This document shows positions 2,025-51,837 of a DNA stretch of 64,000 nt, piece by piece. The DNA comes from Escherichia coli (GTDB lineage: Bacteria > Pseudomonadota > Gammaproteobacteria > Enterobacterales > Enterobacteriaceae), in assembly GCA_032372955.1 (NCBI GenBank), contig GCA_032372955.1_4725.1; one strand, written 5' to 3'. The position numbers and the translations under genes are program-made. Below the pieces are notes generated by a model. That model saw only the letters and a program-made list of their open reading frames with translations. It was not told where the DNA came from and ran no database searches. Position 1 is the stretch's first letter. Each line of letters starts with the position of its first letter.

Positions 2025-2056
2025 CCTTCCTCCAACCCAACAGGGAAGGAGGAAGG
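2025..2056 (+). terminator. conserved CCTCC-armed hairpin element followed by TTTATG
   Basis: CCTTCCTCC-AA-CCC-AACA-GGG-AA-GGAGGAAGG, read from sequence. Confidence 0.5.
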
Positions 2057-13297: not shown

Positions 13298-13340
13298 CTT
13301 ATGCTGTCTTATTTCGCATTACTCCAGTTTATTTCGCGAC

Positions 13341-14947: not shown

Positions 14948-15002
14948 CCCCTCCTCCTTCCCTTACGGGTTGGAGGAGGGAACCGCACAATCTTTTTTTT
15001 TT
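14948..15002. terminator. conserved hairpin element plus T-run between convergent genes
   Basis: CCCCTCCTCC-TT-CCC-TTAC-GGG-TT-GGAGGAGGG then 10 T at 14993-15002. Confidence 0.6.
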
Positions 15003-15006
15003 GCGT

Positions 15007-16617
15007 TTAAAATTCTAAATCAAATTGTAATTCATTACTCGGTGCTGCGTTTTCATCGAACTTGTTCCACGGACCTTTACCTCCCTCGGAGACAGGTTGT
15101 CCGCCAACCTTGCGGCAATATACTGCTTTCTTACCGTAATCATCAGGAAGCATCCCGATGGTTTGGAATGGCATCGCGAAATGTTTGTCTTCAGGTTTCG
15201 TTGAACCGTTATCCGGTTGACGGTCTTTCCCTAATGCAAAGACCTGCCAGCTTTGACGTTTGCCGGGTTCCTTAACGATATCAACAATCACTTCAAGGTC
15301 AATCTCGCGGTCAATCCCTTTACAACCATCCCAGTAACTTAAACCTGCGACCTGGTCAACGAACTCTTCATCGTTACCATCACGTGCACGCATCTTCGCA
15401 TCGGATGACAGCTGGTGTACGGTCATGCCTAAAATACGTTTAACGCTGCAGAGGTTACGGACTTTGTTAAAGAGTTCTTGGAGCCATGCGCCGGTCGGCC
15501 CATTTCTATCCAGCCCTTCCGATGAGAACATTTTCAGATAGTCAATGAACAACGCCATGACTTCATAACCCATGCGTTCGAAATGGTCGATGAGATTAGC
15601 GAGTTGTTTATAACTCATCCCATCAACACGACGCATACAAACAGAGAAACCCGCATCATTGAACACCTTCAACACATAACGTGATGCCTCGCGAGGGTCA
15701 ATCTTACGAATATCGACATATTCGCCCGTTTCCTGTTCTCGCATGTTCTTGTATATTTGAAGCGTGTTTTCTTCCACTTCGTTTTCTGTCGACAAATGAA
15801 TCAGTAATGCTTTCTTTGCTCGCTCCGGAAAAAAGAAATGGGGTTTATTGTACAGTGCCAGATGCGTGAACAGTTTTAACAACACACCTGACTTGTTCCG
15901 GTGCTGCATCGCACCAATCAGTCCTAAGGTACCGCGACGTAAAACACCGACCGACCCCAACATTTTATTAAAACCTTGCCAGCCGGTTACAAACCCACCT
16001 TCAGGACTGTTACGTTCCATCGCTTTGACGAACATACGTTCAACTTTCTCGATATCGTCTTCACTGTCAGCGATAAAGCCGTCAATCATACACGACATCT
16101 CTTCGGGATTTTCGGTATCCATTTCGATACTGTCTAGCGATAATTTCAAATTCGCCATCGCATCGAAAAATTCTTTATCCCCAAGTCGCCCGTTACTGAT
16201 ATCCATGTACGTGTTTCTAAAGGTTTCGAAAACACGACGACGGGTAATCAGATTACGTAATTCGTTGTAATAGAGTGAACAGACCTTACTGATATGAGCG
16301 TCGTCTTCGATATCGTACAGTCCGTCGGCGAGAATCTCGTAAAGATTGCTTTGCTCAAGGCAATCTAAACGTATCCTTTGTAACAACTGTTGTTTATCGA
16401 AAGGTTCCGATAATGGTTGTTCCAACATCCAATGAATGGTATTCATCAGGTTGTTGAAAACCTCTCTATCTACGTCTGTAGCGAGATGGTTTTTCGGGGG
16501 TTCGACTTTATCTAAGACGGATTTAACATGTTCGATCGTACTGGGATCGGGATGGTTCAATTGTGCATTACGAAACAGTAACGTAATAATCTTAATGGCT
16601 ATCTGTTTTGGGTCCAT
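15007..16617 (-). CDS. DnaB-family replicative helicase-like protein
   Basis: Start chosen at MDPKQ (AAAGGA RBS). RecA-like C-terminal domain: Walker B FIDYLKMF, HQLSS (cf. DnaB SQLNR), DGCKGIDREIDLEVIV (cf. ESGxIEQDADxV); P-loop looks degenerate (GAMQHRNKSG). Confidence 0.55.
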   Translation of the reverse strand: MDPKQIAIKIITLLFRNAQLNHPDPSTIEHVKSVLDKVEPPKNHLATDVDREVFNNLMNTIHWMLEQPLSEPFDKQQLLQRIRLDCLEQSNLYEILADGLYDIEDDAHISKVCSLYYNELRNLITRRRVFETFRNTYMDISNGRLGDKEFFDAMANLKLSLDSIEMDTENPEEMSCMIDGFIADSEDDIEKVERMFVKAMERNSPEGGFVTGWQGFNKMLGSVGVLRRGTLGLIGAMQHRNKSGVLLKLFTHLALYNKPHFFFPERAKKALLIHLSTENEVEENTLQIYKNMREQETGEYVDIRKIDPREASRYVLKVFNDAGFSVCMRRVDGMSYKQLANLIDHFERMGYEVMALFIDYLKMFSSEGLDRNGPTGAWLQELFNKVRNLCSVKRILGMTVHQLSSDAKMRARDGNDEEFVDQVAGLSYWDGCKGIDREIDLEVIVDIVKEPGKRQSWQVFALGKDRQPDNGSTKPEDKHFAMPFQTIGMLPDDYGKKAVYCRKVGGQPVSEGGKGPWNKFDENAAPSNELQFDLEF

Positions 16618-17277: not shown

Positions 17278-17426
17278 CGTAGGGAAAAGTTATGCGGCAT
17301 TTTTAGTGTTGTATCACGACCTCAATAACGGTAAGTGTTTACTGATACTATAGTGGCGCATGCACGCGTGTACGCTATGGTCTATCGACCGACTTATATA
17401 AGTTAATTCTGTAAAGGATACTTTCA

Positions 17427-19649
17427 ATGAATGATAAAACCCTTCTTAGCCAACAGGTCGCGGCCACTCGCCAGTTCCTGACCGCTAATGGTAGCAAACC
17501 AGCAGACAAAGGTCTGGAGAACACCTTCCTGTCTATGGAATCTGCTTCTAAGGTTGATTTCAAATCCATGGACAAACTGGTTAACGAAATGGATGTTAAG
17601 AGCTTCAGCAGCGACATCCGTAAAGCAGAAGAACCGGTTCTGTCCATGCTGGGCTTCGAAACCACCACTCCGGAAGAGAAGCAGCGTATTGAAGAACAGC
17701 TGTTCACCATGAACGCACAGCAGGCTCGTGCAGCAGCACTGATCATGCTGGCTCATGGCAACCCGGTGGAATATGCTAAACAAGCACGTTCCATGAACAT
17801 CAGCACCACTCCGTCTGGCCGTGAAGTTGACAGCTCTAACTTCGTCATGATGGCCGCCGATTCCTGCGGTTGCGAATCTGAAGAACTGGTTCAGCTGTCC
17901 TACGACCAGAAAGAACTGCGTGACATGATGCCGTACTCCGTTGTGTTCAACGTGAAGGCTTCTCGTCTGAGCCGCATGGGTAACGAACTGTACAACACCA
18001 TCGTTCTGGCTCCGAACCAGATCGGTTACGACGTATCTTTCCGTCGTCCGCTGGTGTTCAACCACCTGCGTCGTAACGCTGACGGTACTCCGGCTGATTG
18101 GGTACGTCGTCCGCTGCTGGATGCGTTCATGTACAACGACGTTCTGTCCAACGACGTGACCGATCTGCATCCGATCTATCGTGCTGACGATGCTAACGCG
18201 CAGTACTTCGTTGACAAAACTATCGTTGCTCCGCGTGACATCGAAATTAAAGGCGTAACTTACAAAACGTCTTACCTGGCCGTTGATAAACTGATCGACA
18301 TGATCGGTATTGCTGAAGACGATAGCATCCTGGCTAACGGTTACAGCGACAACACCGACGCGCTGGACGCTCAGATCACGCTGACCAAAATCCTGGTGGA
18401 AATCAAATCCACCAAACACAGCAAAACCTCTTACGTACCGTTCGACGTATCTGGTCTGATCACCAACGGTTTCCAGAAATCCCTGGAAGGCGACTTCCGC
18501 AAAATGACCCTGGCGTTCGACACCCACTCCATCTTCGTTGATGAGAACACCGTTGACGTTAAAGGTGCACGAGCTGAAGCGCTGCAGGACATCATCGATT
18601 CGAAATCCGCTGCTCAGCTGGCAATCGAAGTTTACGGTTCTTCCAACGTAGAGAAAGCCGGTCTGCGTGTTAACGGCGCTAACGCTGAACTGTATCGTCT
18701 GGTCGATCGTGACAACATCGAACAACCGCGTAAGGGCGAAGAGTTCAAACAGCTGGCTGAAGACCTGAGCTTCAAACTGGTTGGTTACGAACTGCGTATC
18801 CGCCGTAACAACAGCAACCGTCGTGAGCGTGGTAAGCACCTTGACTTCAACATGAAGCAAGAACGTTACGCAATCGGCCTGCTGGCTCCGTTCTCCATTC
18901 CTCGTCCGCTGGATTGGGAAGAAAACGCTGCTGACCTGGACGTTCTGATCCAAGCTGCTAACGCACGTTTCGACAACCTGATGGTTGAGAAACTGTTCAG
19001 CTACAAAGACGCACTGAAAGCGGTTGCGACCTCTCGCTTCCGTCAGTTCGGCGACATCCAGATCGAAGGTTTCGGTCGTTACCTGATCCGTCCGTGGTTC
19101 GAAGAAATCAATCTGGACCTGGAGAAATCTGTTCAGGGTACCACCACTGCAGAACGTCGTGCTGAAGTGTCCGCTGCGATCATGAACGTGATTCGTGAGA
19201 TGGCATACCGCATGTACTCCGAGTCTGGTTATCAGCCAGCTCTGCAGCTGCTGTCTTCCAACGCTGATGAGAAACCGCGTTGCGTAGTAGCAACTGACAA
19301 CTACATCCCGCAGTTCCTGCAGACCGATGGCGATTTCCGTACCGTTGGTGTGAGCTTCAACTTCGTGGTTGTAGATAACCCGAACGTCATGCTGCGCGAT
19401 AAGATCTTCGTGACCCTGTCTCGTGGTATCCAGGGTTCTCCGGATCCGCTGACCTTCGGTATGTTCCTGTATGTACCGGAACTGGTATCTGTTGCTCAGG
19501 TTACCCGTAACGGTCAGGTTTCTAAAGAAACCATGGTTCAGCCGCGCTGCCGCTTCGTTAACAACTGCCCGCTGCTGGGTCTGATTAACGTTGTGAACCT
19601 GCGTAAGGTCTACACTGAAAACATCAAGCTGCCTGTTCAGACTAACTGA
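17427..19649 (+). CDS. abundant virion structural protein, probable major capsid protein
   Basis: 740-aa ORF, AAAGGA RBS. Extreme bias to high-expression codons (ctg, cgt, ggt, aac, ttc), unlike neighbours; size fits jumbo-phage capsid proteins. Identity not verified. Confidence 0.55.
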   Translation: MNDKTLLSQQVAATRQFLTANGSKPADKGLENTFLSMESASKVDFKSMDKLVNEMDVKSFSSDIRKAEEPVLSMLGFETTTPEEKQRIEEQLFTMNAQQARAAALIMLAHGNPVEYAKQARSMNISTTPSGREVDSSNFVMMAADSCGCESEELVQLSYDQKELRDMMPYSVVFNVKASRLSRMGNELYNTIVLAPNQIGYDVSFRRPLVFNHLRRNADGTPADWVRRPLLDAFMYNDVLSNDVTDLHPIYRADDANAQYFVDKTIVAPRDIEIKGVTYKTSYLAVDKLIDMIGIAEDDSILANGYSDNTDALDAQITLTKILVEIKSTKHSKTSYVPFDVSGLITNGFQKSLEGDFRKMTLAFDTHSIFVDENTVDVKGARAEALQDIIDSKSAAQLAIEVYGSSNVEKAGLRVNGANAELYRLVDRDNIEQPRKGEEFKQLAEDLSFKLVGYELRIRRNNSNRRERGKHLDFNMKQERYAIGLLAPFSIPRPLDWEENAADLDVLIQAANARFDNLMVEKLFSYKDALKAVATSRFRQFGDIQIEGFGRYLIRPWFEEINLDLEKSVQGTTTAERRAEVSAAIMNVIREMAYRMYSESGYQPALQLLSSNADEKPRCVVATDNYIPQFLQTDGDFRTVGVSFNFVVVDNPNVMLRDKIFVTLSRGIQGSPDPLTFGMFLYVPELVSVAQVTRNGQVSKETMVQPRCRFVNNCPLLGLINVVNLRKVYTENIKLPVQTN

Positions 19650-19736
19650 ACTACCGTAGCTGCTTCGTTGGACGATATTCTTGACGACAACGTTGCGGAT
19701 GGTTTCATTGCACCGGACATTCATCCGGCACCGTGA
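19650..19736 (+). other. in-frame 28-codon open extension after the capsid TGA stop
   Basis: No stop from 19650 to TGA at 19734-19736, same frame as capsid ORF; encodes TTVAASLDDILDDNVADGFIAPDIHPAP. Confidence 0.4.
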
Positions 19737-35300: not shown

Positions 35301-35308
35301 CAGCATAT

Positions 35309-35341
35309 CCCCTCCTCCTTCCCTGTTGGGTTGGAGGAGGG
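35309..35341. terminator. conserved hairpin element between convergent genes
   Basis: CCCCTCCTCC-TT-CCC-TGTT-GGG-TT-GGAGGAGGG followed by TTATG and T-rich sequence. Confidence 0.55.
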
Positions 35342-35351
35342 TTATGTTTGG

Positions 35352-36632: not shown

Positions 36633-36686
36633 GGGAGAGGCCCCCTTATTTTATAGTTACAGTAATATTTTACCGCTGTTAACACA

Positions 36687-36736: not shown

Positions 36737-38890
36737 ATGACAGATGAAATTAAACGCCTTCCGTATAACCCGCAGGGGAATTTGGATGGCGCATGGGTTC
36801 CAGAAGAACCCGTCACTGTCCGTCCTTCCACGGGGACCGGATTTAACTTTCTCGTTCCTAAATACGCGCCATATTTTCGTAATGGGTTAAAGATCTACAA
36901 CCCTGAAACAAACGCGTATCTGGAAGAAGGCGTTGACTTTTTATGCACTCACCCCTTCCGTGCCATGGCTGCGCTGACCGGCCTGGAATTATACGGTTCC
37001 ATCATGCTGTTGGACACCGCATTCAGTGGACAGTTGCAACTGAACTACTATTCACTGGGGGGTGAGTTTACACTTGATCAACAACAAATTCTTAACGTTT
37101 TAGCCAACAACCTCTACGACCCCCGCGTTACGTTCTGGGAAAAGGTTGCTGACGTTCCTTCCGTATTCCCGCCAATCAACCACCAACATAATGTCGAAAC
37201 CGACACAATGACGTGGGACGATGTGGTGGCGGCAATCGAATCATTGAAAGAACCGCTTGAAGAAGGGTTCAATAAAGCAATGACCGCATTGCTGCAGCAC
37301 GAGAATCGTCGCGATAACCCCCATGGCGTAACCAAGGCTCAAGTTGGATTGGGGAATGTTCAGAACTTCACAACGGCGACCGAGAGCGATCTGGAAACCA
37401 TCGGTGAAAATCTGTACATGACGTTGGCGATGACGCGTAAGATGATCGCTAACCTGAGTGGTGATAGTGCTGCTGCACACATCAGCAACTACAACAACCC
37501 ACACAAGGTAACTAAAGCCCAGGTGGGACTCGGAAACGTTGAGAACTACGGTACAGCCGATAGTAATGCAACCATTACCGGTACGGCCACAAATCTGTAC
37601 ACAACACCAGCGGGTGTACGTGCGGCAATCAAGGCGATCACGGACGGCTTAAGTACGCGCATCGATCATGTCAACGCTGCGTTAACAACCCATACCGGGG
37701 ATAATAACAACCCTCACGCTGTTACGAAAGCACAGGTAGGACTGGGGGACGTACAGAACTACGGTGTGGCGTCTAATGGGGAAGCCGGTGCAGGTGTTGC
37801 TAACAACAAATACATGACGCCCGCAACCACAGCAGCCGCCATCGCAGCGTTAATCACCCCAACCGTAACCGAACATATCGGTAACACCAACAACCCACAT
37901 GGGGTGACCAAAGCCCAAGTCGGTCTGGGAAGCGTGCAGAACTTTGGGGTTGCTACTACCCAAGAAGCTATCGACGGTCAGGCTAACAACAAGTACATGA
38001 CACCAATACTTGTTCGTTACGCGATCGAGCAAATGGCTGGTCAAGGGTTCAGTAGTCACATCGCAAATACCGAGAACCCGCACCAAGTATCTAAAGCACA
38101 GGTAGGGTTGGGGAGTGTTGAAAACTATCCTGTCGCTTCTGATGTGGAAGCACAAACAGGTGTAGCGACCAACCGCTATATGACACCGGCTGCGACAAAA
38201 GCGGCAATCATCGCTTTAGCGGGTGATGGTTTTGCGGCACACGTTGTCGATAAGAGCAACCCGCATGAAGTAACAAAATCTCAAGTTGGGTTAGGGAACG
38301 TACAGGACTTTGCTGTCGCCACCGACACGCAAGCTGCCGACAAGACTAACCAGACGACGTACATGACACCGTACTCGACTTACAAGTCAATTGCGGCGTT
38401 TGCGGCGTTAGCCGATCATACGCACACAGCCGAACAAGTCGGTGCGCTCCCCATCAATGGGGGTAAGTTAACCGGACCAATCGATCTTTCAGCAACGTCT
38501 ATCACGGGTACCGGACTCGGTATCGATGGTGCTAATGGTTCAATCAACGTCAATAAGTTGACCATCAACCAGCTTCTGGAAGCTTACGGTGGCATTGAAT
38601 CCAGTGATACGATTAAAATCCTGAACGACGATGAGACGCCCGCTAACTTCCTTGCCGATGGCGATCTCGAAGGGATCAAATGGGTTAACATCAACAGCCA
38701 AGAACCTGGAGAGAACCAAGACGGCGAGAAGATGCAGAAGATCGGTAAGCTGAGCGATTACCTTAAGAACGATTATTTAACCAGCTTGAAGACGAACACA
38801 GCGTTCCGTGATGTCTTCCAAGCACTGCTTAGGGAATTCCTTGCTAACTTCAACGCGGTTATCAAAGCAACCGACTTCGAGACGTTATAA
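36737..38890 (+). CDS. tail fibre protein with T4-type repeats
   Basis: 717-aa ORF, AAAGGG RBS; six copies of NPHxVTKAQVGLGNVxNY spaced ~60 aa apart. Confidence 0.8.
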   Translation: MTDEIKRLPYNPQGNLDGAWVPEEPVTVRPSTGTGFNFLVPKYAPYFRNGLKIYNPETNAYLEEGVDFLCTHPFRAMAALTGLELYGSIMLLDTAFSGQLQLNYYSLGGEFTLDQQQILNVLANNLYDPRVTFWEKVADVPSVFPPINHQHNVETDTMTWDDVVAAIESLKEPLEEGFNKAMTALLQHENRRDNPHGVTKAQVGLGNVQNFTTATESDLETIGENLYMTLAMTRKMIANLSGDSAAAHISNYNNPHKVTKAQVGLGNVENYGTADSNATITGTATNLYTTPAGVRAAIKAITDGLSTRIDHVNAALTTHTGDNNNPHAVTKAQVGLGDVQNYGVASNGEAGAGVANNKYMTPATTAAAIAALITPTVTEHIGNTNNPHGVTKAQVGLGSVQNFGVATTQEAIDGQANNKYMTPILVRYAIEQMAGQGFSSHIANTENPHQVSKAQVGLGSVENYPVASDVEAQTGVATNRYMTPAATKAAIIALAGDGFAAHVVDKSNPHEVTKSQVGLGNVQDFAVATDTQAADKTNQTTYMTPYSTYKSIAAFAALADHTHTAEQVGALPINGGKLTGPIDLSATSITGTGLGIDGANGSINVNKLTINQLLEAYGGIESSDTIKILNDDETPANFLADGDLEGIKWVNINSQEPGENQDGEKMQKIGKLSDYLKNDYLTSLKTNTAFRDVFQALLREFLANFNAVIKATDFETL

Positions 38891-46225: not shown

Positions 46226-46366
46226 GATAATGTGTCCTCTGATTTTTGATGGTCGAAAAGGAGATTCGGAGTCGTTCTCCATAATATTTACATTAATATA
46301 AAATATATTAATTTCTGTAAACACTTACATCTTTTGAGAGTGATGTAACAACCATAGAGGTAGAAA

Positions 46367-47260
46367 ATGGCAACTCAAGTTTCGCTTACTTTAAAAACAC
46401 CTTGGCAACTTATCGTTGATGAGATTAACAAACTCAACGCCGACACTGGTGCCAGCTTCCAATACACCGACCTTAAATACGTTCTTAAAGAAAAGAATCC
46501 TTCTGCTCCAGAAGCAACTTTAACGCTTAGCCCTGGTGATGGTACCCCTTACTTCAATAACCGTGATGTTACCTACCATCGTCTGGATCTGGCTAAATGG
46601 TTCCAGAAAATCGCTGTACGTGTTAACGTTACTGCTGACACCACCATCGGTGATGTGGTTGACCTTGTAGCTCAACGCTACGGTATGATCACACCGACCG
46701 GTGAGAAGTTCCTGGATAAAGATAAAGACATCAAAGCCGATACGTTATCTAATCCGGTTACCTTCAACGAGCATGGTATCCAGACGATCACCCTGGAAGC
46801 TAAAGAAGATTCGTTGGCGTGGTACGGCTCTGTTCAAGTTAAAGTTTATAACACCACGCTGGATCTGGCTAACATCATCAAGGTTACCAATCTGGGTAAC
46901 TTAACCTACGTTGATGAAGGCGACGGCACCAAAACGTCAGCACGTCTGTTAACCTATCCGTTAGACTTCAGTACTTACACCGCAGGTTTACAAGCTATTA
47001 CCAGCAACGATACCAAGATCGATGCAGGCTTAGCAGGTAACCTGACTACCCTGATCAAAGAGCAGACTGGTGTAAGTGATGATATCATCAATGAACTGAA
47101 AACCAATCTGCAAACAGCTACCTTTGTCTATAACGGTGCTACCACCGGGTCTACTGACAAAGGTGTTAACGCTACGTACAGCAATGTGCTGGTGCTGTCG
47201 TTAGCTGACGGTACTCACACCTACGGTAAAGCAGTATTCGGTTATAACGTTTCCGAATAA
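46367..47260 (+). CDS. paralogue family protein, member 5
   Basis: 297-aa ORF, AGAGG RBS; motifs VTYHRLDLA, QRYGMITP, LAWYGSVQV; divergent from the 45683 gene. Confidence 0.65.
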   Translation: MATQVSLTLKTPWQLIVDEINKLNADTGASFQYTDLKYVLKEKNPSAPEATLTLSPGDGTPYFNNRDVTYHRLDLAKWFQKIAVRVNVTADTTIGDVVDLVAQRYGMITPTGEKFLDKDKDIKADTLSNPVTFNEHGIQTITLEAKEDSLAWYGSVQVKVYNTTLDLANIIKVTNLGNLTYVDEGDGTKTSARLLTYPLDFSTYTAGLQAITSNDTKIDAGLAGNLTTLIKEQTGVSDDIINELKTNLQTATFVYNGATTGSTDKGVNATYSNVLVLSLADGTHTYGKAVFGYNVSE

Positions 47261-47276
47261 TTTTAATTAATCTCTC

Positions 47277-47308
47277 CCTTCCTCCTTCCCTGTTGGGTTG
47301 GAGGAAGG
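47277..47308 (+). terminator. conserved hairpin element followed by TTTATG
   Basis: CCTTCCTCC-TT-CCC-TGTT-GGG-TT-GGAGGAAGG. Confidence 0.55.
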
Positions 47309-48097
47309 TTTATGTTTGTGATTATTCTTCTCTTTTATAATTTCTAATGATAAGATTAAGTACCTGGAGTAAAAGTTTACAGATGTTGTAAATGTATTTG
47401 GAAAGTAAAATTTCCACGACCTCGGCCCCTTCGGGGGACGGGGGAGGAGCGAAGTCCTTTAGAGACGAGCAACAGGATAACTCTAAGAAAAAGAAAAACT
47501 AAACGAGCGAAGCGAGTTTATGTTTTTATCCTTAGAGTTATCAAGCTATAAGCGTAGCGTTAGCGTATAACGGTTATGTCGTATACGAATGCAATGAGTA
47601 TAGACGAGATACTCTGATGAACAACGTGAAGAAGAGTATCACAAATGTTTTTTGAGTTATCCGGATTTAACTAGCATGTAACGAAGTGTAATGCACAGAT
47701 GACATGTGTTACCGTTAAGGTAGTAAACACATGTTATCCATTGTTTTGAAGATAAGCTTATTAACTTACTTTTAAATCAATTTAAATATACAAACAACTT
47801 AAACATACCAAGATAAAACAATTGAACCTAAGATAAACAAGATAACTTAGACAATACACTTTTAACGAATACAGATAACATCTTACTTAAATCAAAATAC
47901 CTATCCTCGTTTACCTTCCTTGCTTGCAACACCTCTTCTAAATCCATCCCTTCTTAAGAAACAACAAAACCCTTACTGTAACACAAATCCTTTCACGACT
48001 ATATTACCTAAGTGATGCGTACGTACGATGTTCGTATTGCGTCAAATAGAACTCAATACGTTGTTTAATTAACGTGAAAAACAGAGGAACTTTTTAA
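47309..48097. other. 789-bp AT-rich non-coding region with inverted and direct repeats
   Basis: No ORF of 60 aa or more; 12-bp inverted repeat 47476-47487 / 47531-47542; five AGATAA copies 47750-47880; direct repeat CTTACTT(TT)AAATCAA at 47765 and 47882. Confidence 0.6.
48000..48015 (+). promoter_or_regulatory. conserved promoter-like motif TATATTACCTAAGTGA (copy C)
   Basis: Preceded by TTTCACGAC as in copy D; ~80 nt upstream of the 48098 gene cluster. Confidence 0.45.
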
Positions 48098-48880
48098 ATG
48101 AACGATGAAATCATTTTTGATACCATGTTTACTGGAGATGAATACCTGGCGTTACCGAGCGATGTTCAAAACGAATGCGTGAAGGTAGCATGCTACAGCG
48201 GCGGTCAGGCTGGGATGCGTGTACGTTGCGTTGACGGGACGAACGGGAAAGTTGTTTGGCGTGGTGCTCACACGTACCCTTACCTGCTTACCGGCAACAA
48301 GAATTGGTACGCTCATCGCAGCCAGCATCCTGCACGGATGAGCGCGAGCGGATTCGTGGTACGTGGTGCGTTGGATGAACGGGTGGAACGCATCGAGATC
48401 ACCGATCGCGCGTTCATCGATCAGCTTGCACAGGTTGCTTACGATGAGGGACGTGCAACAGGGCGATACGGTTGGTTGAAGGTGAACAGCGATACGCAAT
48501 TACAGGTAGGATTCCATCACGCGCTTCCTGGGTGGGCGAACCATACCGTTGGAACGTATTACACCAAAAAGCTTACCATGGTGAAACCTTACATGGCGGA
48601 TGCGAGCTTGGAGGCAACGGATCAGATGCATCAATTGCTTCGCATGTATTATCCACGGGTGGTGCATCCACTTGGGTTCGCTTGGGTCAGCGAAGTGCGC
48701 TACAACCCACGCAAGAAACGCGTTGAAGCGAAGGTGCTTAACGAACGTTGGTTACCGGTTGTGCAACCAGGGCTTGACGATGAATCCATCATGATGCGGG
48801 TAAGCCGAAGCCGGTTCGTACAATGGGATGCTACCATGCTACAACGCCCACAACACGTTACAGGAGAAACGTTCGCATGA
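48098..48880 (+). CDS. hypothetical protein
   Basis: 260-aa ORF, AGAGGAA RBS; first gene after the AT-rich region and promoter-like motif. Confidence 0.6.
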   Translation: MNDEIIFDTMFTGDEYLALPSDVQNECVKVACYSGGQAGMRVRCVDGTNGKVVWRGAHTYPYLLTGNKNWYAHRSQHPARMSASGFVVRGALDERVERIEITDRAFIDQLAQVAYDEGRATGRYGWLKVNSDTQLQVGFHHALPGWANHTVGTYYTKKLTMVKPYMADASLEATDQMHQLLRMYYPRVVHPLGFAWVSEVRYNPRKKRVEAKVLNERWLPVVQPGLDDESIMMRVSRSRFVQWDATMLQRPQHVTGETFA

Positions 48881-49176
48881 TACGCGCAACAGGATACGAA
48901 AACAAAGGCAAGAACAGCGTGCAGCGTTACGTTGCCGACGAGGAAGGGAAAGCAGAATACCTGGATTGGTTCAACCGTTACAGCGCAAGCAAGGTACGTG
49001 ATCCTAGCATCCTGAGGTTACAGAGCAGTTTCCAATGGCAGGCTTCCGAACAACGCTGGTACATCACGTTGGAAATCGGAACGGTACGGGAAGACCAGCT
49101 TCCTGCATACTTAAAAGAACAACGGGAGCAGATCAACACATTACTCGCACAACACAAAACGGAACCTAAACCTTAA
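48877..49176 (+). CDS. hypothetical protein
   Basis: Start chosen at ATG 48877 (CAGGAGAAA RBS), ATGA overlap with upstream stop. Confidence 0.5.
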   Translation: MIRATGYENKGKNSVQRYVADEEGKAEYLDWFNRYSASKVRDPSILRLQSSFQWQASEQRWYITLEIGTVREDQLPAYLKEQREQINTLLAQHKTEPKP

Positions 49177-49216
49177 TCCAACACCAACAAGCGAAAAGGA
49201 AAGTACAACAGAAATC

Positions 49217-49492
49217 ATGTTGATGAAACCGACAGCAAAGAACAAGGTTTATAAAGCAATCTACGCGTCAGACACAGTCAGCCTGACGAAGATCATCAAA
49301 TACAAACTTGAGAAGGTGCTACGTGTTGAACCGAGCATAGGCTTAGTCCGTTATCGCCTGATTACCGAGAACGGTGAAGGGTATTACGCACCGTCGTCTC
49401 GAAGCGATAACGCCGTTGTGTTAACCCGGGATGTGGTTGAAGCAATCAACAACGGAACGAAGGCGTTCTACGCGCACAGAAAAGCCGTATAA
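49217..49492 (+). CDS. hypothetical protein
   Basis: 91-aa ORF; RBS weak. Confidence 0.45.
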   Translation: MLMKPTAKNKVYKAIYASDTVSLTKIIKYKLEKVLRVEPSIGLVRYRLITENGEGYYAPSSRSDNAVVLTRDVVEAINNGTKAFYAHRKAV

Positions 49493-49569
49493 CGCAATAA
49501 ACGAATCCAAAGAAGGGAAACTATACCTTAACTTAAAACGACGCTTAGAGAGCGTTACAGGAGCTTAGA

Positions 49570-49977
49570 ATGCAACATGATCAAACGAACACCACCGCAA
49601 CGTCAATAGCCCTTGCCGATGCCGTCCAGGCGTGGAACGAGAACCCAGCCTGTCGAGCAAAGATGGAATTGGTGTACGAAGGATCAACCCGTGTCAGGAC
49701 GGCTGATGATGTTCTGGTCGTACGAGGTGAATTCTTCGCCTTAGGTGTCACGGACCGTGGTCCGTTAGATGCGCTTTGGATCGAGTTACAAACCTGCCCG
49801 CAGAGACCACGCTACGTGACCCGTGACCATCGTCCTGAGAACGCGTTGGTCGGAACCGGTTCCGTGGATATTTTCATCTGGCAGGATACCCTCGACAACA
49901 TGAACAAGATGATCGACGTTGAGAACATCGTTGCAAATAAGTTAACCCAACTTAAAGAACGTCTGATGCCGCTATAA
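49570..49977 (+). CDS. hypothetical protein
   Basis: 135-aa ORF, AGGAG RBS. Confidence 0.55.
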   Translation: MQHDQTNTTATSIALADAVQAWNENPACRAKMELVYEGSTRVRTADDVLVVRGEFFALGVTDRGPLDALWIELQTCPQRPRYVTRDHRPENALVGTGSVDIFIWQDTLDNMNKMIDVENIVANKLTQLKERLMPL

Positions 49978-50089
49978 CGCATCAACATCACCCGCCTGTA
50001 CCTCATCGTGTTCGGGCGGGGCAATAAGAAACCAAGGGGACATCGCCGTCCCCGTTACTATCATCAACCACTATCAAGAGGAACCTACC

Positions 50090-50533
50090 ATGGAAATTAA
50101 ATTCTGTAAATCGATCGCGATTGTACCTGAACAACCTGCGGATGATCTCGAAAAGCTCGATCATCCCACACTGCAACATGCGCTGGAACGTTTAGCCTCT
50201 TTTGCGCCGTTAGAGAATCATCTTCACTGCGTTAATCTTGAAGCATCCGACTTCGACGTGAAGCTTGGGTTCGTGTTTTCACAAACGGGGAAGGATGTGT
50301 TAGAAAACATATTCTGGTCTGCTGAGCATAAGGCGAGAAATGTGATGACGAAGTTAGTTTATAACGTTAGCCTTAGTGAAGACGGCACCTATTGGACGTC
50401 AGAGGCTTGCTGGACGATTTCTGCGATTTCACGAATGGACAAAATACACTATTTGCATCGTGTTGCTGATAGCATTGTACACCAACTGGATCGTTTTGAT
50501 ACCACCCGCTTATCGAATGGAACACAGTGTTAA
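50090..50533 (+). CDS. hypothetical protein
   Basis: 147-aa ORF, AGAGGAA RBS. Confidence 0.55.
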   Translation: MEIKFCKSIAIVPEQPADDLEKLDHPTLQHALERLASFAPLENHLHCVNLEASDFDVKLGFVFSQTGKDVLENIFWSAEHKARNVMTKLVYNVSLSEDGTYWTSEACWTISAISRMDKIHYLHRVADSIVHQLDRFDTTRLSNGTQC

Positions 50534-50548
50534 TACGAGGAATCGAAC

Positions 50549-50977
50549 ATGCAAATTAAATGGCCTGAATCAGCAGTAACTGCAGCGCGCGTTGGTCTTT
50601 ATCATTCGCTGGTTGCTCAGCATACCAGCTTACATCGCACCCTATCACTTTTACGCGAAGACGAAAAACTACGTGAACACATTCAGCCGATCTCAGCATC
50701 AATGAATGCGAACACGTTGTCTATGCGTTGCGTTCGATTGACTTTTGTGTGTACCACGTTAGGAAAGACGTTGCTTGAGGCTGCCTATCTTCGTTGTTGC
50801 GAAAGCACGACGTTCACCGACGATATGGTGTTGTCGATCGAGATGTATTGTCAGACAAATGGAATACGTCAACCGCAGATAGTTTGGAAAATATACGGAT
50901 TGACACCAAAAGTAATCAGCACGAAGTTAGATGCGGTTGCTAATAGCCTTAATGAAATTTTGAAAGAAGGAATTTGA
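50549..50977 (+). CDS. hypothetical protein
   Basis: 142-aa ORF, GAGGAA RBS. Confidence 0.55.
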   Translation: MQIKWPESAVTAARVGLYHSLVAQHTSLHRTLSLLREDEKLREHIQPISASMNANTLSMRCVRLTFVCTTLGKTLLEAAYLRCCESTTFTDDMVLSIEMYCQTNGIRQPQIVWKIYGLTPKVISTKLDAVANSLNEILKEGI

Positions 50978-50978
50978 T

Positions 50979-51341
50979 ATGCAACAACGTATCGGTTTAT
51001 CGCTCGCCATTGACCGACTGATCAAAGTCTCATCGTTACGAAGTGAATTTGTTGGCGTCCGTGAAGAAGCGGCGAATAACCGCTGTATTTTAACGTTTAC
51101 GTGTACCAAGAAAGGCGTGACGGTTATCCGTGATGTTTGGGACGCTGTGAACAAACGTGAACCCCGCTGCTCGGTATCTGTCGTTGATTACAAAAACCTG
51201 GATAATACTTACACTATCCGTTTAGAATGGGAGCATCGCCTCAGGACATTCGTTGAAGTTCGGTCGAAGCTGTTAGCTGAATTGTTGAACGAAGCCTGTT
51301 TACGTGACGAGAACGCTACAGAACTCTTCAGAACGCTTTAA
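50979..51341 (+). CDS. hypothetical protein
   Basis: 120-aa ORF, AAGGAA RBS; starts 2 nt after the previous stop. Confidence 0.55.
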   Translation: MQQRIGLSLAIDRLIKVSSLRSEFVGVREEAANNRCILTFTCTKKGVTVIRDVWDAVNKREPRCSVSVVDYKNLDNTYTIRLEWEHRLRTFVEVRSKLLAELLNEACLRDENATELFRTL

Positions 51342-51447
51342 TTCAATCTTAGATAAGGAAACCCCTTAGAAATTAAAACAAACCGTTATACGTCGTTCTG
51401 TGACGTTTAAGCTATACATTGAACTCATGGCAATCGAGGAAAGAAAA

Positions 51448-51837
51448 ATGTTAAATTCAACTTTTACCCACTATCTCCACACCTATGCAAAATTATGCTG
51501 CGTTGACATGGAAGAGCTCGCGAACGATAATACTGTTCGCGATTGTGAGATGCTTCCTAAGCGACAAGGTTTTCTACCCGGTTCGCGGTCAGCGGCGTTC
51601 TTCTTAATCGCTTACTTCATCGTTAGTCATAGTGCGGCGCTGTTGAGCCAAACCAAGAAACAGCGAAAGGATTACGCTACCGCAATCACTCAAGTTTATT
51701 TCGATCGTCTTCACGGACGTGCAGTGAGTATCGATACCGCGTTAACGACCGCGTTTCGTCATCGAGGCGCAACCGCGGTACAGCTACCTGCTTTGGTTAA
51801 GATCGGAAAAGAAATCATCCAGAATGCAACGCGTTAA
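51448..51837 (+). CDS. hypothetical protein
   Basis: Start chosen at ATG 51448 (GAGGAAAG RBS); 129 aa. Confidence 0.5.
   Translation: MLNSTFTHYLHTYAKLCCVDMEELANDNTVRDCEMLPKRQGFLPGSRSAAFFLIAYFIVSHSAALLSQTKKQRKDYATAITQVYFDRLHGRAVSIDTALTTAFRHRGATAVQLPALVKIGKEIIQNATR

What the first reader, a model, noticed from the sequence alone, without database searches (positions are those of the whole stretch)
47309..48097. 789-bp AT-rich non-coding region with iteron-like and inverted repeats
This is the only long stretch in the window with no ORF of 60 aa or more. It contains a 12-bp perfect inverted repeat with a 43-nt spacer (GATAACTCTAAG 47476-47487 / CTTAGAGTTATC 47531-47542), a GCCCC-TTCG-GGGG hairpin near 47424, a GAGTAT...ATACTC hairpin at 47596-47614, five AGATAA(A/C) copies between 47750 and 47880, and a direct repeat CTTACTT(TT)AAATCAA at 47765 and 47882. 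It ends with promoter-like motif copy C and is followed by a run of small genes. Candidates: replication origin, a structured non-coding RNA, or an early regulatory region.
Basis: seen in the sequence. Interest (0 to 1): 0.65.

Follow-up and report, generated by a model that had tools for sequence, protein, structure and literature searches.

The report
Ultra-conserved structured non-coding element, Goslar-like phage
The 837-base gene-free gap in this Goslar-like nucleus-forming jumbo phage holds a roughly 290-base element, far better conserved than the neighbouring genes, that most likely encodes an undescribed structured non-coding RNA, followed by a variable AT-rich spacer and an ordinary early promoter.

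Summary
The window is a relative of Escherichia phage Goslar (Chimalliviridae), and the gap matches the unannotated 854-bp gap between Goslar gp022 and gp021.

The region has three parts:
- **Core (47361-47653).** It is 92-100% identical across more than 15 Goslar-like genomes. The adjacent virion gene is 75-96% identical. Only 6.9% of core columns vary, against 48% in that gene.
- **Spacer (47654-47993).** It evolves fast and holds the AGATAA copies, which number 0 to 6 among relatives. It is the lowest-GC and most G-depleted 200 nt of the whole Goslar genome.
- **Promoter (47994-48015).** An early-type promoter motif drives a variable island of ORFan genes.

The core folds into about eight hairpins on the + strand, capped by UUCG and GNA loops. 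Many G·U pairs work only on that strand, and a few substitutions are compensatory. The core starts at a palindromic promoter-like motif and ends in a hairpin plus a U-run.

It has no Rfam match, no coding signal and no homologue outside the Goslar clade. The best reading is a new phage non-coding RNA gene of unknown function. An iteron-type origin is not supported. A transcription-primed origin is not excluded.

The parts
47277..47317 (+). Intrinsic terminator of the upstream virion-protein gene (gp022 homologue, 46367-47260). It is a GC-rich hairpin CCTTCCTCCTTCCC/GGGTTGGAGGAAGG followed by TTTATGTTT.
   Evidence: Inverted repeat I6. Hairpin energy is -23.5 kcal/mol. The same hairpin sequence recurs at 2025-2056(-), 14952-14977, 35308-35343 and 63039-63069(-). 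It is conserved in all relatives.
47318..47368 (+). T-rich leader with the conserved box ATAAGATTARGTA (47350-47362). It is moderately conserved and may be the upstream part of a promoter.
   Evidence: Alignments. The box has no other good copy in the window.
47369..47380 (+). Palindromic promoter-like motif GTAAAAGTTTAC at the 5' edge of the conserved core. It is invariant in all 15 core variants.
   Evidence: The Goslar genome has 5 exact copies against 0.33 expected, all of them intergenic. With up to 1 mismatch, 12 of 23 copies are intergenic although only 7.8% of the DNA is intergenic. In the window, copies lie 85 nt upstream of the major head protein ATG (17331), 64 nt upstream of the gene starting at 36737 (36662) and 39 nt upstream of the gp022 ATG (46317).
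47361..47653 (+). Ultra-conserved core, the candidate structured non-coding RNA.

Hairpins:
- H1 47375-47393
- H2 47399-47416
- H3 47420-47443 (C-UUCG-G cap)
- H4 47444-47459
- H5 47476-47542 (long, GAA triloop)
- H6 47548-47577 (uncertain)
- H7 47578-47605
- H8 47608-47640
- U-run 47648-47653

The predicted RNA runs from about 47400 to 47653, or on to about 47749.
   Evidence: - The core is 92-100% identical in 15 relatives, against 75-96% for the adjacent CDS.
- 6.9% of its columns vary, against 48% in the CDS and 29% at codon position 2.
- 79 modelled pairs are 99.6% paired, and 3 pairs carry changes on both sides (12 cells). Partners slid by 1-3 columns are only 35-54% paired.
- The consensus fold is -79.4 kcal/mol on the + strand and -62.5 on the - strand.
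- Fold z-score is -4.9.
- There is no Rfam match.
- There is no ORF with a start codon longer than 36 aa.
47654..47697 (+). Variable linker after the U-run. In some relatives an extra perfect hairpin, AACGTTTTG/CAAAACGTT, is inserted here.
   Evidence: Alignments.
47698..47749 (+). Accessory terminator-like hairpin GATGACATGTGTT/AACACATGTTATC followed by CATTGTTTTG. The stem is conserved and the loop varies. It is absent from L007, L023 and L025.
   Evidence: Inverted repeat. Energy is -18.6 kcal/mol. Presence and absence among relatives are shown.
47750..47993 (+). Variable spacer, AT-rich and nearly G-free on the + strand. It holds five AGATAA words (47750, 47811, 47831, 47840, 47873), the direct repeat CTTACTT(TT)AAATCAA (47765, 47882) and a C/T-rich tract next to the promoter.
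   Evidence: - G content is 5.8% and A+T is about 71%.
- It is the lowest-GC and most base-depleted 200 nt of the window and of the Goslar genome.
- 72% of its columns vary.
- Spacer length ranges from 123 to 463 nt and the AGATAA count from 0 to 6 among relatives.
47994..48015 (+). Early-type promoter motif CACGACTATATTACCTAAGTGA preceded by a T-run.
   Evidence: The motif recurs at 13335, 19815 and 60497. At 13335 and 19815 it lies 30-40 nt after a terminator hairpin and upstream of a + strand gene. In Goslar there are 10 copies, all in the direction of the genes, and one lies about 65 nt upstream of chmA.
48016..48097 (+). 5' UTR of the first gene of the variable early island (ATG at 48098). 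It has a small hairpin (48033-48060) and a Shine-Dalgarno sequence AGAGGAA.
   Evidence: Sequence, inverted repeat I17 and ORF 48098-48880.

Best explanation
The gap is a composite of three units.

**Unit 1: a non-coding RNA gene.** Directly after the terminator of the late virion gene lies an independent gene for a highly structured non-coding RNA on the + strand. Its conserved core is 47361-47653.
- Transcription probably starts about 20 nt downstream of the palindromic motif GTAAAAGTTTAC (47369-47380), near 47400. That motif also precedes late structural genes. By analogy with the phiKZ middle promoter, the non-virion phage RNA polymerase would be the enzyme, acting inside the phage nucleus.
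- The RNA would then begin with hairpin H2 and run through H3-H8.
- It would end at the U-run 47648-47653 or, in most genomes, at the stronger hairpin terminator 47698-47749. The product would be about 250-350 nt.
- Loops and linkers are as invariant as stems. The RNA therefore most likely acts in trans as a protein-bound scaffold or decoy, not merely as a fold. Its partner is unknown.

**Unit 2: a spacer.** The AT-rich, G-poor stretch with the AGATAA words is a fast-evolving, dispensable spacer or upstream region.

**Unit 3: an early promoter.** The motif at 47994 is an ordinary early promoter for a variable island of ORFan genes.

**Shown:** the conservation, the strand-specific foldability, the limited covariation, the absence of coding signal, the motif statistics and the clade restriction.

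**Inferred:** transcription itself, the start and end points, the polymerase, and action in trans.
For: **Identity of the locus**
- The window is about 91% identical to Goslar, and the gap equals the unannotated Goslar 14972-15825.

**Conservation**
- The core is 92-100% identical in 15 relatives, against 75-96% for the gp022 CDS and 70-94% for the spacer.
- 6.9% of core columns vary, against 48% in the CDS (29% at codon position 2) and 72% in the spacer. The longest invariant run is H5, 47476-47541.

**Structure**
- The fold z-score is -4.9.
- The consensus hairpins are given.
- 79 pairs are 99.6% paired. No shuffle out of 500 reaches the observed covariation score or the number of doubly changed cells. 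Slid controls are 35-54% paired with no double changes.
- The apical stem of H7 shows AU/UA, AU/CG, GU/CG and GC/CG.
- In L023, three changes turn H3 into a perfect 10-bp helix. Its UUCG cap is replaced by a GAA-type cap.

**Strand**
- Three constant and several variable G·U pairs exist only on the + strand.
- The consensus energy is -79.4 kcal/mol on the + strand and -62.5 on the - strand.

**Boundaries**
- The promoter-like palindrome sits at the 5' edge and is strongly enriched in intergenic DNA upstream of late genes.
- Conservation stops at the U-run.
- The phiKZ middle promoter is described as a TACT motif about 22 nt upstream of the start site, preceded by an A-rich repeat (PMC8244752).

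**Not coding**
- Stop codons occur in all frames except one 62-codon open stretch that has no start codon.
- 1-nt indels occur between clades.

**An independent insert**
- Elsewhere the terminator is followed by the early promoter within 30-40 nt.
- The sister clade L008 has terminator followed directly by promoter, with no core.
- The core stays invariant although the downstream genes differ between relatives.
Against: - No transcript data could be examined. Published Goslar RNA-seq is reported per gene only, and its supplement is not held.
- Covariation rests on 3 pairs, and 70 of the 79 pairs never vary. Related sequences can beat the shuffle control without any structure.
- Three positions break modelled pairs: an A-U to G·G double change in H7 in L035/L039, and single breaks in H6.
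- H8 is followed by its U-run only after 7 nt, and the strict terminator scan finds nothing.
- The predicted start site would exclude H1, so H1 may be promoter DNA and not RNA.
- GNA-capped mini-hairpins such as GCGAAGC are also very stable in single-stranded DNA (my recollection of Hirao and co-workers, not checked here).
- Near-total sequence invariance is unusual for an RNA constrained by its fold alone.
- No homologue exists outside one narrow clade.
Confidence: 0.55

Rival explanations
1. Transcription-primed replication origin. The promoter-like motif drives a structured, G-rich pre-primer RNA. This RNA forms an R-loop at or next to the very AT-rich stretch and is processed by the phage RNase H-clamp protein to prime DNA synthesis. 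The model follows T4 ori(uvsY)/ori(34), the T7 primary origin and ColE1 RNA II.
For: - A promoter-like motif and a conserved transcript-like unit lie directly upstream of the lowest-GC, most strand-skewed 200 nt of the entire Goslar genome.
- The G-runs GGGGGACGGGGGAGGAG lie within the core.
- Goslar genome replication needs the RNase H activity of Rhc (PMC13648698).
- The 2025 review of nucleus-forming phages describes no origin.
Against: - The AT-rich stretch is dispensable in nature. L023 has a 123-nt spacer with no AGATAA, and L025 has a largely different spacer, yet both keep the core.
- The + strand of the spacer is G-poor, which disfavours a stable R-loop by a rightward transcript (inference).
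- The G-runs are paired inside H3, and substitutions there preserve that hairpin.
- Cumulative GC skew follows gene direction and shows no inflection at about 15 kb.
- There is no initiator-like gene nearby and no DnaA-box enrichment.
Confidence: 0.15
2. Cis-acting leader or attenuator. The structured RNA is the 5' part of a longer transcript and controls read-through into the downstream early-gene island at later times, by termination and antitermination.
For: - It has the same orientation as the downstream genes.
- Four segments, GUAUAC, GAGUAUA, GAUACUCU and AGAGUAUC, can pair 1:2, 2:3 or 3:4, with 3:4 lying before a U-run.
- Two successive terminator-like hairpins are present.
Against: - The alternative 2:3 fold is 6.4 kcal/mol worse.
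- The U-run lies 7 nt from the stem, and the strict terminator scan is negative.
- The regulated genes would be 340-450 nt away, behind their own promoter.
- The core is invariant while the downstream genes differ between relatives.
Confidence: 0.1
3. Double-stranded DNA platform for proteins, such as a regulator operator cluster, a packaging-initiation site or a centromere-like site, and not an RNA.
For: - The palindrome GTAAANNTTTAC is a recurrent intergenic DNA motif.
- GTAAA words lie at 47369, 47387 and 47405, exactly 18 nt apart.
- Six GATAAC/GTTATC words are present, in both orientations.
- Loops and linkers are as invariant as stems.
Against: - Substitutions in stems keep pairing, including double changes.
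- Wobble pairs make the fold specific to one strand.
- One stable cap (UUCG) is swapped for another (GAA) in L023.
- Apart from the palindrome, no other copy of the core sequence exists in the genome.
Confidence: 0.1
4. The conservation has no function of its own. The stretch is a recently spread or recombination-homogenised segment, or a remnant of a mobile insertion.
For: - Goslar-like genomes are mosaics with patches of 100% identity elsewhere.
- The core-plus-spacer behaves as an insertion relative to the sister clade L008.
Against: - The core is the most conserved segment in every one of 15 pairwise comparisons, including those where both flanks have diverged to 70-80%.
- The two clades keep fixed differences inside the core, so it has not simply been swept.
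- The sites that do vary avoid disrupting pairs.
Confidence: 0.05
5. The region encodes one or more small proteins that the 60-aa cut-off missed.
For: - A 36-aa ATG ORF lies at 47392-47502.
- A 62-codon open stretch lies in frame +2.
Against: - The 36-aa ORF has no Shine-Dalgarno sequence before its ATG, and that ATG lies inside hairpin H1.
- The 62-codon stretch has no ATG, GTG or TTG.
- Observed substitutions are mostly non-synonymous in both frames, and 1-nt indels separate the clades (my reading).
Confidence: 0.03

Closest known systems
Small non-coding RNAs mapped in other chimalliviruses (201phi2-1 sRNA001-011 and the phiKZ gp182-leader sRNA, by ONT-cappable-seq)
   Same: These are phage-encoded, intergenic or leader-derived short transcription units in the same virus family, each with its own start and a nearby terminator. 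One of them is conserved across genera by position and by fold (PMC11512511).
   Different: Those RNAs were selected as shorter than 250 nt, and eight of the eleven are 5' UTR-derived. None is reported at this locus. There is no sequence similarity, since blastn finds only Goslar. The present element is larger, is not attached to a gene, and is conserved far more strongly than its neighbours.
Transcription-primed phage and plasmid origins (T4 ori(uvsY)/ori(34), T7 primary origin, ColE1 RNA II), as I recall them from established literature
   Same: Both have a promoter followed by a non-coding transcript and an AT-rich, easily unwound stretch. Both depend on RNase H in the replication system (for Goslar: PMC13648698).
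   Different: Here the AT-rich stretch is variable and missing in L023. The transcript strand is G-poor across it. No replication start has been mapped.
Large structured RNAs of unknown function found in phages and prophages (GOLLD, ROOL and similar Rfam families)
   Same: They are long, multi-hairpin, non-coding elements carried by phages, recognised by conservation and structure before any function was known.
   Different: There is no match to any of the 4227 Rfam models even at E-values up to 10. This element is shorter, is restricted to one genus-level clade, and shows very little sequence variation.
Iteron-type replication origins
   Same: Both have short direct repeats in an AT-rich non-coding region.
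   Different: The repeats here are 6-7 nt long, irregularly spaced (61, 20, 9 and 33 nt) and number from 0 to 6 among relatives. There is no adjacent initiator gene and there are no DnaA boxes.

Membership tests
Any Rfam 15 RNA family | Covariance-model match at the family's gathering score | tested here: not met
   There are no matches over the whole window. At E-values up to 10 on 47200-48150 there are only three chance-level hits, of 13.6-19.3 bits against cut-offs of 58-171 bits.
Independent structured non-coding RNA gene | Conserved secondary structure supported by compensatory changes on one strand | tested here: met
   99.6% of cells are paired, 3 pairs have changes on both sides, and slid controls are 35-54% paired. 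The + strand consensus is 17 kcal/mol better than the - strand. Support is limited because 70 of the 79 pairs never vary.
Independent structured non-coding RNA gene | Own promoter and own terminator | tested here: inconclusive
   A promoter-like palindrome lies at 47369-47380, enriched upstream of late genes. H8 plus a U6 run lies 7 nt downstream, and a hairpin of -18.6 kcal/mol with a U-rich tail lies at 47698-47749. The strict terminator scan is negative. No transcript data were available.
Independent structured non-coding RNA gene | No protein-coding potential | tested here: met
   The longest ORF with a start codon is 36 aa and has no ribosome-binding site. Clade-specific 1-nt indels are present.
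Iteron-type replication origin | Array of three or more direct repeats of about 17-22 bp at regular spacing, conserved among relatives | tested here: not met
   Only 6-7-nt AGATAA words are present, with spacings of 61, 20, 9 and 33 nt. Their number ranges from 0 to 6 among relatives. No longer direct-repeat family was found.
Iteron-type replication origin | Adjacent AT-rich unwinding element | tested here: met
   The stretch has 24.5-25.5% GC, the minimum for both the window and the Goslar genome. It is absent in L023.
Iteron-type replication origin | Adjacent initiator gene or host DnaA boxes | tested here: not met
   The neighbouring genes have no Pfam or PHROG family. TTATNCACA with up to 1 mismatch gives one hit in the region and 57 in the window against 60.6 expected.
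Transcription-primed origin (T4, T7 or ColE1 type) | Persistent RNA-DNA hybrid and a mapped replication start downstream of the promoter | not testable with these tools
   This needs DRIP-seq or marker-frequency data. GC skew gives no signal at the locus.
Transcription attenuator or riboswitch leader | Mutually exclusive antiterminator and terminator helices of comparable stability | tested here: inconclusive
   The alternative pairings exist, but the antiterminator state is 6.4 kcal/mol less stable.
Transcription attenuator or riboswitch leader | Terminator stem directly followed by a U-tract, with the regulated ORF immediately downstream | tested here: not met
   There is a 7-nt gap before the U-run. 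The next ORF is 445 nt away, behind its own promoter.
Base-pairing trans-acting small RNA | Seed region with significant complementarity to translation-initiation regions of target mRNAs | tested here: inconclusive
   The best duplex with 262 Goslar start regions is -55.1 kcal/mol. Shuffled cores reach -52.2. The top hit overlaps a GC-rich terminator.

The most novel reading that the evidence does not exclude
The conserved core and its promoter-like motif are the first replication origin identified for nucleus-forming Chimalliviridae. A structured, G-rich pre-primer RNA would be made by the phage's own polymerase inside the phage nucleus. The essential RNase H-clamp subunit (Rhc) of the phage DNA polymerase would process it next to the most AT-rich, most strand-skewed DNA of the genome.
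Probability: 0.12. Interest if true: 0.85.

Novelty: new member of a known kind. Interest (0 to 1): 0.55.

Why it matters
Goslar is the E. coli model for nucleus-forming jumbo phages. Goslar-like phages are also found mostly as persistent infections in Enterobacteriaceae isolates (10.1101/2024.12.31.630880). No non-coding RNA and no replication origin turned up for them in the papers I searched and read.

Only 6.9% of the element's positions vary, against 29% at the second codon positions of the adjacent virion gene. An element conserved that strongly is very likely important to the phage. If it is an RNA made in the phage nucleus, it offers a handle on several open questions:
- RNA retention versus export;
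- regulation in the middle and late phases;
- anti-defence or persistence functions.

If it is instead a primer or origin element, it would open the unstudied question of how replication starts in this family.

Two by-products may help annotate these genomes: the promoter-like palindrome GTAAANNTTTAC and the early promoter motif.

Tried and rejected
- **Rfam.** Searches at gathering and at permissive thresholds found nothing.
- **tRNA and tmRNA scan.** Nothing was found.
- **Homologues.** Searches of 50,697 phage genomes, PLSDB plasmids and complete E. coli genomes, in near and distant modes, found only Goslar. An exact 29-mer scan of GTDB species representatives gave 0 hits.
- **Synteny in other genera.** The gp022-like hits in CR5 and SPLA1a are paralogue arrays of virion proteins with no long gap. 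The gp021 homologue exists only in Goslar.
- **Two- and four-genome comparisons.** These were not decisive on their own, because these genomes are mosaics with other patches of 100% identity.
- **A closing helix.** I guessed one joining 47363-47369 to 47470-47475. It was mis-registered and is not supported, at 29-50% paired. The closing stem also differs between clades in single-sequence folds.
- **Attenuator switch.** The alternative fold is clearly less stable.
- **Antisense targets.** The search among Goslar start regions did not exceed shuffled controls.
- **Whole-genome GC skew.** It tracks gene orientation only.
- **Paralogues of the core in Goslar.** None were found apart from the shared 16-mer AGTAAAAGTTTACAGA upstream of chmA/gp245, which led to the palindromic motif.
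- **DnaA boxes.** They are not enriched.
- **Sigma-70 promoter scan.** It gave no more hits than chance.
- **CRISPR-repeat mimicry.** I considered mimicry of E. coli type I-E or I-F repeats from memory and saw no resemblance. This was not formally tested.
- **Literature.** No paper I searched or read describes this element, a Goslar non-coding RNA or a chimallivirus origin. The supplement with Goslar per-gene RNA-seq counts is not held.
Full report
**What the window is.** The region and its flanks are about 91% identical to Escherichia phage vB_EcoM_Goslar, a nucleus-forming jumbo phage of the Chimalliviridae. The finding corresponds to Goslar 14972-15825, on the reverse strand. That is an 854-bp gap with no annotated feature, lying between gp022 (a virion structural protein, DUF7941) and gp021 (hypothetical). 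In the window the flanking genes are 46367-47260 and 48098-48880, both on the + strand.

**Checking the observation.**
- 47261-48097 is the longest stretch without a six-frame ORF of 60 aa or more: 837 nt, against 255 nt for the runner-up.
- The 12-bp inverted repeat, the CCCC-TTCG-GGGG hairpin, the GAGTAT/ATACTC repeat, the five AGATAA copies, the CTTACTT..AAATCAA direct repeat and the promoter-like motif are all at the stated coordinates.
- The stretch around 47700-47920 is the lowest-GC 200 nt of the window (25.5%), and the same place is the minimum of the entire 237-kb Goslar genome.
- 47751-47993 has only 5.8% G on the + strand. It is the most single-base-depleted stretch of that genome.

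**Relatives and the conservation profile.** I collected the same locus from more than 15 Goslar-like genomes and contigs. They came through the neighbouring protein and through exact core words. The profile is strongly uneven.
- 47361-47653 is 92-100% identical to every relative. The adjacent gp022 CDS is 75-96% identical, and the rest of the gap 70-94%.
- Across ten genomes, 6.9% of core columns vary. The figures are 48% for the gp022 CDS (29% at second codon positions, 77% at third), 47% for the terminator and leader, 72% for the spacer and 47% for the promoter and UTR.
- A two-genome comparison would not have shown this, because these genomes are mosaics with other identical patches.
- The nearest outgroup, L008, has a gp022 only 50% identical at the protein level. 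There the terminator is followed directly by the early promoter motif, with neither core nor spacer.
- At two of the other three promoter copies in the window (13335, 19815), the terminator-to-promoter distance is also only 30-40 nt.

Together, core and spacer therefore behave as an insertion specific to the Goslar clade.

**The core is a folded single strand, most likely RNA on the + strand.**
- The + strand of 47361-47655 folds to -86.5 kcal/mol (z = -4.9). The - strand folds to -69.2 kcal/mol.
- On an alignment of ten variants, the consensus fold is -79.4 kcal/mol on the + strand and -62.5 on the - strand.
- The consensus has a series of hairpins: H1 47375-47393, H2 47399-47416, H3 47420-47443, H4 47444-47459, H5 47476-47542, H7 47578-47605 and H8 47608-47640. 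A less certain H6 lies between H5 and H7.
- On 15 distinct variants, 79 modelled pairs are standard pairs in 99.6% of cells, and three pairs carry changes on both sides (12 cells). No shuffle out of 500 reaches the observed covariation score. Sliding the partners by 1-3 columns drops pairing to 35-54% with no double changes.
- The apical stem of H7 occurs as AU/UA, AU/CG, GU/CG and GC/CG.
- In the most divergent variant, L023, three substitutions convert a G·A mismatch and a U·G pair of H3 into Watson-Crick pairs. The C(UUCG)G cap is replaced by a C(GAA)G-type cap, so one very stable cap is exchanged for another.
- Constant G·U pairs (three) and variable ones (H1, H3, H7) would be A·C mismatches on the other strand.
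- The hairpin caps are UUCG, GAA (twice), GUA and GCA. Two of the hairpins have tandem G·A pairs beside the cap (sequence).

The caveats are real. 70 of the 79 pairs never vary. The shuffle control can be beaten by related sequences without any structure. Three positions break modelled pairs: an A-U to G·G double change in H7 in L035/L039, and single breaks in H6.

**Not coding.** The longest ORF with a start codon is 36 aa (47392-47502). It has no ribosome-binding site, and its ATG lies inside H1. A 62-codon open stretch in another frame has no ATG, GTG or TTG. Substitutions are mostly non-synonymous in both frames, and the two clades differ by 1-nt indels (my reading).

**Boundaries: a promoter-like motif and a U-run.** A search for paralogues of the core in the complete Goslar genome found none. 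It did find a 16-nt exact match, AGTAAAAGTTTACAGA, in the chmA/gp245 intergenic region. This led to the palindrome GTAAANNTTTAC.
- Goslar has five exact copies against 0.33 expected, all of them intergenic.
- With up to one mismatch, 12 of 23 copies are intergenic although only 7.8% of the genome is.
- In the window, copies lie 85 nt upstream of the major head protein ATG (17331), 64 nt upstream of the gene starting at 36737 (36662), 39 nt upstream of gp022 (46317) and at 47369-47380, the 5' edge of the core.
- In the direction of the genes the consensus is GTAA(A/G)NNTTTAC(T/A)GA.
- It resembles the published description of the phiKZ middle promoter: a TACT motif about 22 nt upstream of the start, preceded by an A-rich repeat (PMC8244752).
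- At gp022 the start must lie within about 24 nt of the motif, because the Shine-Dalgarno sequence follows.

By the same geometry the core transcript would start near 47400, at the foot of H2. This is inference. It would also make H1 part of the promoter DNA and not of the RNA.

At the 3' side, conservation ends exactly at the U-run 47648-47653, which follows H8 after 7 nt. Most genomes also carry a stronger hairpin (47698-47738, -18.6 kcal/mol) with a U-rich tail. Its stem is conserved and its loop varies. L007, L023 and L025 lack it.

**The spacer and the AGATAA words.** The segment between the U-run and the early promoter is 123-463 nt long among relatives. The number of AGATAA words is 4-6 in most, 2 in L025 and 0 in L023 (123-nt spacer), and all these genomes keep the core. 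The words are 6-7 nt long and irregularly spaced. This does not fit iterons. The extreme composition remains unexplained. A second, milder stretch of the same kind lies upstream of Goslar gp228.

**The right end.** CACGACTATATTACCTAAGTGA (47994-48015), preceded by a T-run, recurs at 13335, 19815 and 60497 upstream of + strand genes. In Goslar the motif occurs ten times, always in the direction of the genes, and once about 65 nt upstream of chmA. The chmA start site was mapped from 5-minute RNA-seq (10.1101/2023.09.20.558163). The phiKZ early promoter is described as an extended -10 element with an upstream T-rich motif (PMC8244752). I therefore read this as the early, virion-polymerase promoter. 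The genes it drives have no Pfam or PHROG family and differ between relatives.

**What it most likely is and how it works.** The best-supported reading, at about 0.55, is an independent gene for a structured non-coding RNA of about 250-350 nt. It would be transcribed rightward from the palindromic promoter-like motif and would end at the U-run or at the following hairpin. Loops and linkers are as invariant as stems, so the sequence is probably read by a partner, either a protein or another nucleic acid. A protein-bound scaffold or decoy acting in trans is my preferred mechanism, but this step is inferred.

The rivals are:
- a transcription-primed origin (0.15);
- a cis-acting leader or attenuator (0.10);
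- a double-stranded DNA protein platform (0.10);
- function-less conservation (0.05);
- small proteins (0.03).

The evidence for and against each is given in its own entry. The key points are as follows.
- The AT-rich stretch is dispensable in nature.
- GC skew is uninformative.
- The alternative attenuator fold is 6.4 kcal/mol worse.
- The antisense-target search did not exceed shuffled controls.

**Comparison with what is known.** There is no match to any of the 4227 Rfam families and no tRNA or tmRNA. There is no similar DNA in phage, plasmid or E. coli collections outside Goslar. Small RNAs have been mapped in phiKZ and 201phi2-1, but they were selected as shorter than 250 nt, are mostly leader-derived and lie at other loci (PMC11512511). 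The reviews and Goslar papers I could read mention no such element and no origin. I therefore file it as a new member of a known kind: a phage-encoded structured non-coding element of unknown function.

**Verdict.** The interesting object is the 290-nt core, not the AGATAA repeats. Interest is 0.55. The conservation is striking in an important model phage and the element is directly testable with existing RNA-seq data. Its function is unknown, and the structural evidence rests on little variation.

Noticed in passing
window 17331-17342, 36662-36673, 46317-46328, 47369-47380; Goslar 15706, 81200, 173087, 176758, 188961: The palindromic motif GTAAANNTTTAC(T/A)GA is strongly enriched in intergenic DNA upstream of late and middle genes: the major head protein, virion proteins, the tail sheath and DNA polymerase parts. 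It is probably the middle/late promoter element, or an operator, of Goslar-like phages.
   Followed up: partly
window 13335, 19815, 47994, 60497; Goslar 172979 upstream of chmA: An early-type promoter motif, T-run + CACGRCTAYATTACYTARGTGA. At 13335 and 19815 it lies 30-40 nt after a terminator hairpin. Goslar has ten copies, all in the direction of the genes.
   Followed up: partly
window 2025-2056(-), 14952-14977, 35308-35343, 47277-47308, 63039-63069(-): A family of nearly identical GC-rich terminator hairpins (CCTTCCTCCTTCCC..GGGTTGGAGGAAGG + TTTATG). Several public short-read contigs (L013, L015, L018) break about 45 nt after the gp022 stop, which is at this repeat.
   Followed up: partly
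Goslar (L030) 185750-186100, upstream of gp228: This is the second most AT-rich and base-depleted stretch of the Goslar genome. It also contains AGATAA/ACATAAC words and G-runs (GGGAGAATGGGGAGGTGGGGAG). It may be a related kind of upstream region.
   Followed up: no
Goslar (L030) 188951-189143: A 193-nt gap between two convergent genes (gp224, gp223) carries an exact copy of the promoter-like palindrome. It could be a second non-coding transcription unit.
   Followed up: no
Goslar (L028) 82470-83288: An 819-nt unannotated gap follows the NUMOD1/HNH endonuclease gene gp069, next to the split DNA polymerase gene gp068. It is outside the window and was not examined.
   Followed up: no
window 17424-19724 (-) versus 17427-19649 (+): A 766-aa antisense ORF mirrors almost exactly the 740-aa major head protein ORF.
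   Followed up: no
window 48098-51837 and the same place in L009, L010, L014, L016, L017: The early-gene island downstream of the finding consists of ORFans with no Pfam or PHROG family. Its gene content differs between relatives, so it is a hypervariable accessory region that begins right after the invariant core.
   Followed up: partly
window 47369, 47387, 47405: Three GTAAA words are spaced exactly 18 nt apart at the 5' end of the core (GTAAAAGTTTAC, GTAAATGTATTT, GTAAAATTTCCA). They might be protein-binding repeats and not, or as well as, RNA hairpins H1 and H2.
   Followed up: no
L009, L017, L021, L026, just after the U-run (equivalent to window about 47655): Some relatives carry an inserted perfect hairpin, AACGTTTTG-TGAAGA-CAAAACGTT, between the core and the accessory terminator.
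   Followed up: no
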